Of a DNA stretch of 30,500 bases, positions 3,202 through 5,126 are shown piece after piece. The DNA is from Paludibacteraceae bacterium. Its GTDB lineage: Bacteria; Bacteroidota; Bacteroidia; Bacteroidales; Paludibacteraceae. The first letter of the stretch is position 1; each line of letters begins with the position of its first letter. The stretch is from assembly GCA_017550055.1 (NCBI GenBank), contig JAFYMM010000160.1:1-30500 (forward strand), in the 5' to 3' direction. Position numbers and translations under genes: made by a program. Below the pieces are notes generated by a model. It did not search any database and was not told the origin of the DNA. It worked only from the letters and a program-made list of their open reading frames with translations.

Positions 3202-4989
3202 ATGGAACAATATATTGTATCGGCGCGTAAGTATCGTCCGCAGACGTTTATGTCGGTGGTAGGTCAGGCTGCGTTGACTGCAACGTTAAAGAATGCGATA
3301 GCCAACAAGCATTTGGCTCATGCGTATTTGTTTTGCGGTCCGCGTGGAGTGGGCAAGACCACATGTGCGCGTATATTTGCAAAGACAATCAACTGCTTGA
3401 ATCCTACGGCACAAGGCGAGGCATGCAACGAGTGTGAATCGTGTCGAGCATTCAACGAGCAGCGTTCGTTCAACATTCATGAACTGGATGCTGCGTCGAA
3501 TAACTCGGTAGATGACATCCGTAATCTAGTTGACCAAGTGCGTATTCCGCCTCAAATCGGCAAATATAGCGTTTATATAGTCGATGAGGTGCATATGTTG
3601 TCGGCGGCGGCGTTCAATGCCTTTTTGAAGACATTGGAGGAGCCACCTACGCATGCTATATTTATACTTGCAACGACCGAGAAACACAAGATTATACCAA
3701 CCATTTTGTCGCGTTGTCAGATATATGATTTCAATCGTATAACAATCAACGACACAGTGGCGCACTTGCAGTATGTGGCGAAGAATGAGGGCGTTGATGC
3801 CGAAGAGATGGCACTGAACGTGATAGCACAAAAAGCCGACGGAGCGATGCGCGATGCATTGTCGATATTCGACCAAGTGGTGAGTTTTTGTGGCAATAAG
3901 ATTACGTATCAAGGCGTTATCTCCAATTTGAACGTATTGGACTACGACTACTATTTCCGTTTGGTAGATGCCCTGTTGGGCAACCGAGTGCCAGAGGCAT
4001 TGATGATATTCGATGAGGTGTTGAGCAAAGGATTCGAAGGTCAGCATTTCGTTGGAGGCTTGTCGTCGCATTTGCGTGATTTGATGGTTAGTCGCGACGA
4101 GATGACATTGCCATTATTGGAAGTAGGCGAATTGGTAGCCGAAAAATATAAAGAACAAGCCAAACGATGCGAAAATTGGTGGTTGTATAAGGCGTTGGAG
4201 TATGCCAACGATTGCGATTTAGCGTATCGTGCGAGTCGTAACAAGAGGTTGTTGGTCGAGGTGATGTTGATTCGAGTGTCAGGATTGATAGCAGGAGGCA
4301 TACAACCAAAAAAAGCTGAACCGGAGTTGCCATTAATGACTGTTGAGTCAACTTCGGGAGAACAAAAAAACAGTCAACAGTCAGTAGTTAATAGTCAACA
4401 GGTGGCGGTTGGTAGTCAACAGGTGGCAGTTGGTAGTCAACAAGTGGCGGTTGGGGCGCAATCGGTAGCGAGTGGACATACGCCAATTGTGGTGCAAAAG
4501 CCTAAGGTAGTAACAGTTTCGTTGAAACCTACGCCTGCGCCAGTTGTGCCACAAGAGTCCGTGCCAGCGTCGGTTGTCGATGAAGGCGAGGCAATGTCTG
4601 ATGTCGTTGTAAATCAAGAAGTAAAGCAACGCAGTTTTACGAATGATGAACTATTGCAAGCATGGCGCATGTATGCCAAGAAGATAGAAGGCGAGTTGCA
4701 CACATTCAACACGATGATGAACTTCTTGCCAGAGCGCAATGGCGAAACATCAATCATCGTCAAGTTGATAAACACCATGCAACTCGATGCCTTGAGCCGA
4801 CACAAACGCACGTTAGAGATGTTTTTGGCAAACGAGTTGGGTAATAGTGGCATTGTCGTGAATTTCTTAGTAGAGGAGCAAGTTGCGCGTCCGATGTTTT
4901 TCACTGCCGATGAAAAATTCAAGCACATGCAAGAGATAAATCCCGATTTCAAGCTTCTGAAGAGTGAATTAGGGTTGGAGATTGTGTGA
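3202..4989 (+). CDS. dnaX: DNA polymerase III subunit gamma/tau
   Basis: True start MEQYIVSARKYRPQ at 3202 (the track ORF extends back through the promoter); Walker A GPRGVGKT, Zn-module cysteines, DEVHMLS, SRC motif, low-complexity linker and C-terminal domain. Confidence 0.96.
   Translation: MEQYIVSARKYRPQTFMSVVGQAALTATLKNAIANKHLAHAYLFCGPRGVGKTTCARIFAKTINCLNPTAQGEACNECESCRAFNEQRSFNIHELDAASNNSVDDIRNLVDQVRIPPQIGKYSVYIVDEVHMLSAAAFNAFLKTLEEPPTHAIFILATTEKHKIIPTILSRCQIYDFNRITINDTVAHLQYVAKNEGVDAEEMALNVIAQKADGAMRDALSIFDQVVSFCGNKITYQGVISNLNVLDYDYYFRLVDALLGNRVPEALMIFDEVLSKGFEGQHFVGGLSSHLRDLMVSRDEMTLPLLEVGELVAEKYKEQAKRCENWWLYKALEYANDCDLAYRASRNKRLLVEVMLIRVSGLIAGGIQPKKAEPELPLMTVESTSGEQKNSQQSVVNSQQVAVGSQQVAVGSQQVAVGAQSVASGHTPIVVQKPKVVTVSLKPTPAPVVPQESVPASVVDEGEAMSDVVVNQEVKQRSFTNDELLQAWRMYAKKIEGELHTFNTMMNFLPERNGETSIIVKLINTMQLDALSRHKRTLEMFLANELGNSGIVVNFLVEEQVARPMFFTADEKFKHMQEINPDFKLLKSELGLEIV
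4293..4357 (+). promoter_or_regulatory. Candidate -1 programmed ribosomal frameshift cassette in dnaX
   Basis: AGGAGG (4293-4298), 9 nt, in-frame A_AAA_AAA (4308-4314), -1 frame AGC TGA (stop 4317-4319), 9-bp stem 4321-4329/4349-4357. Confidence 0.6.
4372..4455 (+). repeat. In-frame heptamer array (12 x 7 bp) in the dnaX linker, encoding SQQSVVN(SQQVAVG)x3
   Basis: agtcaac agtcagt agttaat agtcaac aggtggc ggttggt agtcaac aggtggc agttggt agtcaac aagtggc ggttggg. Confidence 0.85.
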
Positions 4990-5011
4990 TGCGTCCGCTA
5001 AATATAAAGAT

Positions 5012-5047
5012 AAAAGACAAGAGATTTTTTTCTCTTGTCTTTTTTTT
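5012..5047 (+). terminator. Intrinsic terminator of dnaX, probably bidirectional
   Basis: AAAAGACAAGAGA-TTTTTT-TCTCTTGTCTTTT followed by a T-run; the A-run on the 5' side gives a U-tract on the minus strand. Confidence 0.85.
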
Positions 5048-5126
5048 GTTGATGCTTCGCTCGATTACTCGATGCGAATATAGTGCTTTGGGGGATTGTT
5101 GACATGAGAATAGAGGAGTTTTTTTG

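What the first reader, a model, noticed from the sequence alone, without database searches (positions are those of the whole stretch)
4293..4357. Complete E. coli-style -1 frameshift cassette in a Bacteroidales dnaX
Seen: AGGAGG (4293-4298), a 9-nt spacer, the in-frame slippery heptamer A_AAA_AAA (4308-4314, codons P369-K370-K371), then AGC-TGA in the -1 frame (stop 4317-4319). Six nt after the slip site is a 9-bp stem CCGGAGTTG/CAACTTCGG with one G-U pair. Established: E. coli dnaX makes gamma from an internal SD about 10 nt upstream, A_AAA_AAG, one -1 codon then UGA, and a 3' stem-loop; Thermus uses transcriptional slippage. Inference: a ~372-aa gamma ending just after the clamp-loader core would be made alongside the 595-aa tau. 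This is notable because Bacteroidota mostly do not use SD pairing for initiation, so a working internal SD would indicate anti-SD use during elongation. I cannot tell whether this has been described for this lineage.
Basis: partly seen in the sequence, partly recalled or inferred. Interest (0 to 1): 0.8.

Follow-up and report, generated by a model that had tools for sequence, protein, structure and literature searches.

The report
Ribosomal frameshift site in Bacteroidales dnaX
The DNA-replication gene dnaX of this uncultured gut Bacteroidales bacterium carries a signal that very probably makes some ribosomes slip back one base and stop, giving a short (gamma) and a long (tau) clamp-loader protein. 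The signal is built like the textbook E. coli one but arose independently, in a phylum that otherwise uses long poly-A runs at this spot.

Summary
It is the only one of 286 in-phase A_AAA_AAR heptamers in this genome that combines an upstream SD-like sequence with a downstream hairpin.

All 25 species of the genus with an assembled dnaX, plus one sister genus, keep three things:
- an invariant A7 in the same phase;
- a -1 stop after exactly one codon, which switches between TGA and TAA while the zero-frame residues vary;
- a 9-bp stem 6 nt downstream, with compensatory changes.

Synonymous variation in dnaX is lowest exactly here. This supports a programmed -1 ribosomal frameshift giving a 372-aa gamma beside a 595-aa tau.

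Other genera of the family (Paludibacteraceae) and other Bacteroidota mostly carry A9-A13 runs at this spot. That poly-A type was already described in 2013 and noted before by this scan. The heptamer type was not found in the papers searched or in earlier scan notes.

Rfam's DnaX model does not match, so the cassette is convergent, not homologous.

Two additions: the hairpin loop probably pairs with a downstream segment to form a pseudoknot, and the GGAGG-like element is kept in 24 of 26 species. Its function is unproven, because Bacteroidia ribosomes sequester the anti-SD. No expression data could be obtained.

The parts
3202..4989 (+). dnaX zero-frame ORF: tau, 595 aa, 66.3 kDa
   Evidence: ORF and translation. 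Pfam DNA_pol3_delta2 at residues 22-180 and the DnaX ATPase lid at 187-231. Found in all relatives searched that have the gene assembled.
3202..4319 (+). Predicted gamma coding path: zero frame to K371 (4314), then a -1 shift, AGC (Ser) and TGA. 372 aa, 41.7 kDa, ending ...QPKKS.
   Evidence: Reading; molecular weight. The shift point lies just after the conserved clamp-loader core, because matches to other families end at about residue 362.
4293..4298 (+). SD-like AGGAGG, 9 nt upstream of the heptamer
   Evidence: Predicted duplex with CACCUCCUUU is -10.3 kcal/mol, the strongest of all positions in this dnaX. A comparable element 7-10 nt upstream occurs in 24 of 26 species, at a median within-gene percentile of 0.022. 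It is kept through amino-acid changes by rare codons: ACG/ATG/GTG/GCG + GAG + G. It is not part of any consensus RNA fold.
4308..4314 (+). Slippery heptamer A_AAA_AAA (P369 wobble base, K370, K371)
   Evidence: Exactly seven A's in the same phase, followed by G, in 26 of 26 species of the clade, while codon 369 varies (CCA/TCA/CTA/TTA). tRNA-Lys UUU and CUU are both present.
4314..4319 (+). -1 frame AGC (Ser) followed by the TGA stop
   Evidence: 26 of 26 species have a -1 stop after exactly one codon: TGA in 19 and TAA in 7, with at least 4 independent switches on the tree. Zero-frame residues vary (A/V/D, then E/K). The +1 frame stop varies from 4 to 57 codons away.
4321..4329 (+). Stem 1, 5' arm (CCGGAGTTG), 6 nt after the heptamer
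   Evidence: RNAalifold finds the stem unaided. 98.6% of cells are paired against 22-52% when slid. C-G to U-A in 7 species and G-C to A-U in 2 non-sister species.
4349..4357 (+). Stem 1, 3' arm (CAACTTCGG)
   Evidence: As for the 5' arm.
4337..4346 (+). Candidate stem 2, 5' arm (TGACTGTTGA), inside the loop of stem 1
   Evidence: Perfect 10-bp complement to 4374-4383. A helix this long was found in 0 of 78 control windows elsewhere in the gene. See the 3' arm entry.
4374..4383 (+). Candidate stem 2, 3' arm (TCAACAGTCA). With stem 1 it would form an H-type pseudoknot. The A-rich connecting loop at 4358-4373 contains the second A7.
   Evidence: An 8-14 bp helix between the loop and a site 13-30 nt downstream occurs in 18 of 26 species. 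Positions flanking the invariant core TGTTG/CAACA covary, and pairing stops sharply outside a 10-bp span. The partner lies in different reading frames in different species: Ala-Thr-Ala versus Ser-Gln-Gln-Ser. Two species with no TGTTG core (L013, L015) have longer, stronger stem 1 hairpins (-25 and -20 kcal/mol).

Best explanation
This is a programmed -1 ribosomal frameshift site in dnaX.

Proposed mechanism (inferred): with tRNA-Lys(UUU) on AAA 4309-4311 (P site) and AAA 4312-4314 (A site), a fraction of ribosomes slips back one base on A_AAA_AAA. They then read AGC (Ser) and stop at TGA 4317-4319. This releases a 372-aa gamma that holds the clamp-loader core but lacks tau's C-terminal part. 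Ribosomes that do not slip make the 595-aa tau.

Slipping would be promoted by an RNA structure that starts 6 nt downstream: a 9-bp stem, probably extended to an H-type pseudoknot by loop pairing with 4374-4383. A GGAGG-like sequence 9 nt upstream may add to this.

Shown by comparison: selection on the heptamer, its phase, the -1 stop, stem 1, the upstream G-rich element and the loop-downstream complementarity.

Inferred only: that ribosomes and not RNA polymerase slip, the efficiency, the existence of gamma protein, and any pairing of the GGAGG-like element with 16S rRNA.
For: - All elements are at the stated coordinates.
- The site is the only one of 286 in-phase heptamers in the genome with both stimulators.
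- The pattern AAAAAAAGNTRARYCRGRGTTGC is present in 24 of 26 genomes of the genus. One of the other two has a one-base variant and the other has no dnaX assembled. It is absent from 375 genomes of 32 other genera of the family.
- A7 length and phase are invariant in 26 of 26 species, while dnaX protein identity to the window falls to about 54%.
- The -1 stop lies after exactly one codon in 26 of 26 species, with TGA/TAA switching, and codon 372 always ends in T although it encodes A, V or D. GCT and GTT make up only 22-28% of Ala and Val codons.
- The +1 stop is not conserved.
- Stem 1 is predicted independently and covaries.
- Codon identity at synonymous sites has a gene mean of 0.49 (sd 0.095). 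The 15 highest 9-codon windows of the whole gene all fall at residues 368-389, peaking at 0.91.
- The layout matches E. coli dnaX side by side: SD spacer 9 versus 10 nt, one -1 codon then UGA, about 6 nt to the stem.
- Both tRNA-Lys isoacceptors are present. This fits AAA and not AAG as the last codon of the heptamer (background in PMC5009743).
Against: - There are no expression data. The public runs that hold this DNA are kept only as assembled contigs, which cannot show A-run heterogeneity or a second protein.
- A_AAA_AAA is less shift-prone than A_AAA_AAG in E. coli (PMC5009743).
- Stem 1 is weaker than the E. coli stem (-12.9 versus -19.1 kcal/mol).
- Relatives are not independent samples, and most of the genus is a single radiation.
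- Sister genera use long A-runs that are thought to act at transcription, so a transcriptional contribution at A7 is not excluded.
Confidence: 0.8

Rival explanations
1. Transcriptional slippage: RNA polymerase adds or drops an A in the A7 run, and ordinary translation of the out-of-frame transcripts yields gamma, as at the A9 run of Thermus dnaX.
For: Most other genera of the family and most other Bacteroidota sampled carry A9-A13 runs at the same codon, with nearby stops in both alternative frames. This type was predicted for Bacteroidetes in 2013 (PMC3711429, Supplementary Fig. S3).
Against: - The run is exactly 7 in 26 of 26 species and always in the X_XXY_YYZ phase. Poly-A genera vary in length (10-13) and in phase.
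- Selection against slippage-prone runs is discussed for runs of about 9 (PMC1088944).
- Only the -1 stop is conserved; the +1 stop ranges from 4 to 57 codons away.
- A covarying structure 6 nt downstream has a known role in ribosomal shifting but none for polymerase slippage on an upstream run.
Confidence: 0.08
2. No recoding: the conserved nucleotides serve another purpose, such as an mRNA stability or pausing structure or a protein motif KK-x-E-P-E-L-P, and the -1 stop is incidental.
For: The peptide KK[AVD][EK][PS]ELP is conserved. No product has been observed.
Against: - Conservation is strongest at synonymous sites.
- Wobble bases of codons 369 and 372 are fixed while the residues change.
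- The -1 stop survives through TGA/TAA exchange.
- The site sits exactly where other lineages place their gamma/tau recoding signal.
Confidence: 0.05
3. The frameshift works, but the GGAGG-like element does not act through the anti-SD. It is a by-product of Gly-Gly or x-Glu codons, or serves another role, because Bacteroidia ribosomes keep the 16S 3' tail sequestered.
For: - In F. johnsoniae the prfB frameshift SD gives no stimulation unless bS21 is mutated (PMC10798248).
- bS21 is present in 20 of 26 genus genomes.
- The element is missing in 2 of 26 species that keep the rest of the cassette, including the sister genus.
- GGA is the commonest Gly codon, so Gly-Gly often gives GGAGG by default.
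Against: - The element is kept in 24 of 26 species at 7-10 nt spacing and ranks in the top 2% of positions within each gene.
- In one subclade it persists through T/M/V/A substitutions by use of G-ending codons that make up only 9-25% of their families, and Glu is GAG in 7 of 7.
- It is not explained by a consensus RNA fold.
- A family member's 16S ends in ...CACCUCCUUUCU, so the anti-SD exists.
Confidence: 0.5

Closest known systems
E. coli dnaX tau/gamma -1 programmed ribosomal frameshift (Rfam RF00382; annotated in NC_000913.3 as two CDS, one of them joined)
   Same: Same gene and same outcome. The parts come in the same order: an SD-like sequence (AGGGAG, 10-nt spacer, versus AGGAGG, 9 nt), an in-phase A-rich heptamer, one -1 codon then UGA, and about 6 nt to a stem that starts CCGG.
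   Different: - The heptamer is A_AAA_AAA, not A_AAA_AAG.
- The host has tRNA-Lys CUU as well as UUU.
- The stem is shorter and weaker and probably forms part of a pseudoknot.
- The shift is at residue 371 against about 430 in E. coli, directly after the core.
- The RF00382 model scores 96.8 bits on E. coli and finds nothing here at E up to 10.
- Neighbouring genera lack the cassette, so it arose independently.
- The host phylum does not use SD for initiation (PMC10798248).
Thermus thermophilus dnaX transcriptional slippage at A9, and the A10 two-ORF dnaX genes of Bacteroidetes and Chlorobi (Larsen 2000 as cited in PMC1088944; Antonov 2013, PMC3711429)
   Same: Same gene, same position at the gamma/tau boundary and the same purpose. 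This is the state in most sister genera and in most other Bacteroidota sampled.
   Different: Here the run is only 7, fixed in length and phase. It is accompanied by a covarying 3' structure and an upstream SD-like element, and only the -1 frame closes at once.
prfB +1 frameshift site with SD in Bacteroidia (Naeem et al. 2024, PMC10798248)
   Same: An SD-like element is conserved next to a recoding site in a lineage whose ribosomes are blind to SD at initiation.
   Different: Different gene, direction and spacing. In this genome prfB is a single open frame with no frameshift, and the rpsU leader has no SD. dnaX is therefore the only candidate SD client seen here.

Membership tests
dnaX-type -1 PRF cassette (E. 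coli paradigm) | In-phase X_XXY_YYZ heptamer in dnaX at the gamma/tau boundary | tested here: met
   A_AAA_AAA at 4308-4314, in phase, in 26 of 26 species.
dnaX-type -1 PRF cassette (E. coli paradigm) | -1 frame stop almost immediately, giving a truncated product | tested here: met
   One codon, then TGA or TAA, in 26 of 26 species.
dnaX-type -1 PRF cassette (E. coli paradigm) | Stimulatory RNA structure 5-8 nt downstream | tested here: met
   A 9-bp stem 6 nt downstream; 98.6% of cells paired; two pairs with compensatory changes.
dnaX-type -1 PRF cassette (E. coli paradigm) | Upstream SD-like sequence that pairs with the anti-SD of 16S rRNA | tested here: inconclusive
   The sequence is present in 24 of 26 species at 7-10 nt. 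The anti-SD was seen in a family member but the 16S 3' end is not assembled in this genus. Pairing itself is not testable here.
dnaX-type -1 PRF cassette (E. coli paradigm) | Two proteins actually made by ribosomal shifting | not testable with these tools
   Only assembled contigs of public runs were available.
Rfam RF00382 DnaX frameshifting element (homology family) | Match to the covariance model at or above 35 bits | tested here: not met
   No match in the window at E up to 10. The E. coli control scored 96.8 bits.
Thermus-type transcriptional slippage site | Homopolymer of about 9 or more | tested here: not met
   A7 is invariant.
Thermus-type transcriptional slippage site | Near stops in both alternative frames | tested here: not met
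   The -1 stop is always 1 codon away; the +1 stop is 4-57 codons away.
Thermus-type transcriptional slippage site | Transcripts heterogeneous in A-run length | not testable with these tools
   Contigs drop minor variants; no indel was listed.
H-type frameshift-stimulating pseudoknot | Second helix between the stem 1 loop and downstream sequence, with covariation and workable loop lengths | tested here: inconclusive
   An 8-14 bp helix in 18 of 26 species. Four flanking positions covary. Loop lengths are 7-16, 2-3 and 13-30 nt. The helix is weak or absent in 8 species. MAFFT could not register the 3' arms, so the pair-counting tool could not be applied.

The most novel reading that the evidence does not exclude
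The conserved GGAGG-like element does pair with the 16S anti-SD during elongation in a Bacteroidia ribosome. The anti-SD would then be accessible either in elongating 70S ribosomes or in a bS21-free subpopulation, and the gamma:tau ratio would respond to ribosome composition. In this genus rpsU has no SD and prfB has no frameshift, so dnaX would be the one natural anti-SD client.
Probability: 0.3. Interest if true: 0.8.

Novelty: new member of a known kind. Interest (0 to 1): 0.62.

Why it matters
dnaX frameshifting is the textbook bacterial -1 frameshift, but the documented cases found here are all proteobacterial (Escherichia, Salmonella, Neisseria, Vibrio and others; PMC3711429). Here the same three-part design has been rebuilt from scratch inside one family of Bacteroidales whose other genera solve the same problem with poly-A runs.

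This matters for three reasons:
- It is a clean natural case of a switch between two recoding modes.
- It is evidence that making a gamma subunit is under selection in this phylum.
- It gives a natural substrate for asking whether the sequestered anti-SD of Bacteroidia ribosomes is ever used during elongation.

For annotation, these genes should carry a second, joined gamma CDS.

Tried and rejected
- **Reads.** I laid four public runs on 3600-4900. All were contigs, so they cannot test slippage. They show only that another strain keeps the cassette (its one difference there is at 4300) and that a metatranscriptome holds one contig of the gene's 3' part.
- **16S anti-SD in the genus.** A pattern search and an RF00177 search found only 5' fragments at contig ends. 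I used a family member instead.
- **Genome-contig scan for named close relatives**. The family name rests on two titles whose first 362 residues are identical to family members.
- **Pair counts for stem 2.** MAFFT did not register the 3' arms, so I counted pairs in scripts.
- **Fold of a 90-nt window** gave z = -0.67. The case for stem 1 rests on covariation and on the 37-nt hairpin.
- **Upstream GGAGG as part of an RNA fold.** RNAalifold on 137 columns returns only stem 1.
- **Transfer from Proteobacteria.** I considered this because UGAACCGG is shared with E. coli. I rejected it because there is no Rfam match, the protein groups with its family, and the shared bases are the stop codon and the start of the stem.
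- **Second A7 at 4364-4370** (A_AAA_AAC). It is not conserved.
- **Literature.** Five full-text searches found no report of a heptamer-type dnaX site in Bacteroidota. This covers only the library searched.
Full report
**1. Observation**

dnaX is the ORF 3202-4989 on the + strand, 595 aa. Pfam places the clamp-loader ATPase domain at residues 22-180 and the lid at 187-231.

- AGGAGG at 4293-4298, then a 9-nt spacer.
- A7 at 4308-4314. Here 4308 is the wobble base of P369, and K370 and K371 are AAA AAA, so the run is an in-phase A_AAA_AAA.
- In the -1 frame, AGC then TGA (4317-4319).
- A 6-nt spacer, then a 9-bp stem 4321-4329 / 4349-4357 with one G-U pair.

The shifted product would be 372 aa, 41.7 kDa, ending ...QPKKS. 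Tau is 66.3 kDa.

The hairpin alone folds at -12.9 kcal/mol (z = -3.29, 0 of 200 shuffles as stable). A 90-nt window is unremarkable.

A bare heptamer means little in this A-rich genome. There are 286 in-phase A_AAA_AAR sites in ORFs of 200 codons or more, and 54 of them have a -1 stop within two codons. The dnaX site is the only one that also has a strong SD-like duplex and a downstream hairpin.

**2. Conservation in the genus**

The window lies in a 1.9-Mb, 85%-complete metagenome-assembled genome. The public runs that hold the sequence are animal gut metagenomes, several of them bovine.

dnaX was recovered from 24 other species of the genus and aligned by codon. Full-length protein identity to the window falls to about 54%. 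In every species:
- The run is exactly A7, in the same phase, followed by G.
- Codon 369 varies (CCA, TCA, CTA, TTA) but always ends in A.
- Codon 372 is GCT, GTT or GAT (Ala, Val, Asp) and always ends in T, although GCT and GTT make up only 22-28% of their codon families.
- Codon 373 is GAR or AAR. The -1 frame therefore always reads one codon and then TGA (19 species) or TAA (7 species, including the sister genus).

On the DnaX tree the TAA species fall in at least four separate places. The +1 frame closes anywhere from 4 to 57 codons later.

A 23-nt degenerate pattern covering the heptamer, the stop and the 5' arm is present once in 24 of 26 genus genomes. It is absent from 375 genomes of 32 other genera of the family. 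Of the two genus genomes without it, one has a single-base variant that keeps the heptamer, stop and stem (L033). The other has no dnaX assembled.

**3. Stem 1**

RNAalifold, given only the sequences, returns the same 9-bp stem from a 63-column and from a 137-column alignment.
- 98.6% of sequence-by-pair cells are standard pairs, against 22-52% when the 3' arm is slid by 1-3 columns.
- The closing C-G pair is U-A in a seven-species clade, where a further G-C pair is added.
- The third pair is A-U in place of G-C in two species that are not sisters.

**4. Synonymous sites**

Across 24 genus sequences, codon identity among pairs that share the same residue averages 0.49 (sd 0.095) in 9-codon windows. 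The 15 highest windows of the entire gene all lie at residues 368-389, peaking at 0.91. Amino-acid identity there is only 0.3-0.7. Selection therefore acts on the RNA, not just on the peptide.

**5. The upstream GGAGG-like element**

A duplex of -6 kcal/mol or stronger with CACCUCCUUU is predicted 7-10 nt upstream in 24 of 26 species. It ranks at a median percentile of 0.022 among all positions of each species' own dnaX.
- In most species it arises from Gly-Gly codons, which often give GGAGG by default because GGA is the commonest Gly codon.
- In a seven-species subclade the residues are Thr, Met, Val or Ala followed by Glu. The element persists there as xxG GAG G, using G-ending codons that are 9-25% of their families, and GAG in 7 of 7.
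- It takes part in no consensus fold.
- It is absent from one genus member and from the sister genus, both of which keep the rest of the cassette.

Context for the anti-SD question:
- The 16S 3' end is not assembled in any genome of the genus. A complete genome of the family ends ...CACCTCCTTTCT.
- bS21 is present in 20 of 26 genus genomes, and its gene has an A-rich leader without an SD.
- prfB here is one open frame without the usual +1 frameshift.
- Published work shows that Bacteroidia ribosomes sequester the anti-SD, and that the prfB SD does not stimulate shifting in F. johnsoniae unless bS21 is altered (PMC10798248; PMC13000453).

The element is thus conserved, but whether it acts as an SD is open.

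**6. A probable pseudoknot (new)**

The 3' part of the stem 1 loop (4337-4346) is a perfect 10-bp complement of 4374-4383.
- An 8-14 bp helix of this kind, 13-30 nt downstream of stem 1, is found in 18 of 26 species. In most of them it is rare or absent in control windows elsewhere in the gene.
- I anchored only on the invariant core TGTTG/CAACA and took the first downstream partner. The flanking positions are then paired in 10-16 of 21 sequences over a 10-bp span, and in only 2-5 of 21 just outside it.
- Four flanking positions change pair type between lineages: T-A/C-G, G-C/T-A, A-T/G-C and A-T/C-G.
- The partner encodes Ala-Thr-Ala in frame 0 in most species but Ser-Gln-Gln-Ser in another frame in the window.
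- Two species that have no TGTTG core in the loop carry longer stem 1 hairpins (-25 and -20 kcal/mol).

The loop lengths (7-16, 2-3 and 13-30 nt) allow an H-type pseudoknot. This rests on my own scripts, because MAFFT would not register the 3' arms for the pair-counting tool. I rate it about even.

**7. Wider picture**

Two record titles whose first 362 residues are identical to family members name the family as Paludibacteraceae.

One genome per genus of the family shows:
- about 21 genera with an A10-A13 run at codon 364-371, in varying phase, with nearby stops in both alternative frames;
- in five of these, plus probably two more not fetched as loci, the zero frame closes right after the run, so tau itself needs recoding;
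- nine genera with no run;
- one genus with A8 and no near -1 stop;
- one genus (g34) with the A7/stop/stem cassette but no SD-like element.

On the DnaX tree the window's genus is monophyletic (98/87). It sits in an unresolved group with the A7, A8, A10 and no-run genera, so a single origin of the cassette is not excluded.

Of 80 further Bacteroidota loci, most carry A9-A11 at the same place. That poly-A type was reported for Flavobacterium, Cytophaga and Capnocytophaga in 2013 (PMC3711429, Supplementary Fig. S3). This scan has noted it several times on other DNA. Neither the papers searched nor the scan's notes hold a heptamer-plus-structure dnaX site in this phylum.

**8. Comparison with E. 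coli**

The K-12 record annotates tau and a joined gamma CDS. Its sequence reads AGGGAG, 10 nt, A_AAA_AAG, then GAG UGA in the -1 frame, and a stem beginning about 6 nt downstream at -19.1 kcal/mol. The layout is the same.

Rfam's DnaX model scores 96.8 bits on E. coli and nothing on the window. The element works like the E. coli one but is not a member of that homology family.

The AAA in place of AAG as the last codon fits the presence of tRNA-Lys(CUU) beside tRNA-Lys(UUU). E. coli, with a single tRNA-Lys, favours AAG (PMC5009743). This link is an inference.

**9. Verdict**

The most likely explanation (0.8) is a functional -1 ribosomal frameshift that makes gamma, evolved independently of the proteobacterial one.
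- Transcriptional slippage at A7 (0.08) is disfavoured by the fixed length and phase, the -1-only stop and the 3' structure.
- Conservation without recoding (0.05) is disfavoured by the conservation at synonymous sites and by the stop switching.
- Whether the GGAGG-like element acts through the anti-SD is about even.
- No expression evidence was obtainable.

Noticed in passing
L045, L047, L057, L059, L060 (family members); also G047 and G060: In several Paludibacteraceae genera dnaX is split at an A10-A12 run. The zero frame stops 0-2 codons after the run, and the tau C-terminal part continues in the +1 or the -1 frame, depending on the genus.
   Followed up: partly
L159 (own genome, contig C256), about 1280-1400 on the - strand: prfB (RF2) is a single open frame of 376 aa without the programmed +1 frameshift and its SD that most bacteria carry.
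   Followed up: partly
L150-L155 (rpsU of six genus members): The bS21 gene has an A-rich leader with no SD. The SD-based rpsU autoregulation described for Flavobacterium johnsoniae is therefore not evident in this genus.
   Followed up: partly
window 4364-4370: A second A7 run (in-phase A_AAA_AAC) lies inside the A-rich stretch between stem 1 and the candidate stem 2 partner. It is not conserved in relatives.
   Followed up: yes
window about 4390-4460: The tau linker holds three tandem copies of a 21-nt unit encoding SQQVAVG. Linker length and repeats differ between species of the genus.
   Followed up: no
window 5010-5048: A hairpin followed by a T-run lies just after the dnaX stop. It looks like an intrinsic terminator and probably explains the weak GibS match.
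   Followed up: no
L032 (genus g29): dnaX has an A8 run that contains an in-phase A_AAA_AAA_G, but the -1 frame stays open for 32 codons and only the +1 frame closes at once. This may be an intermediate or a different solution.
   Followed up: no
genome-wide: 286 in-phase A_AAA_AAR heptamers occur in long ORFs of a 1.9-Mb genome, so bare heptamers do not seem to be strongly avoided.
   Followed up: no
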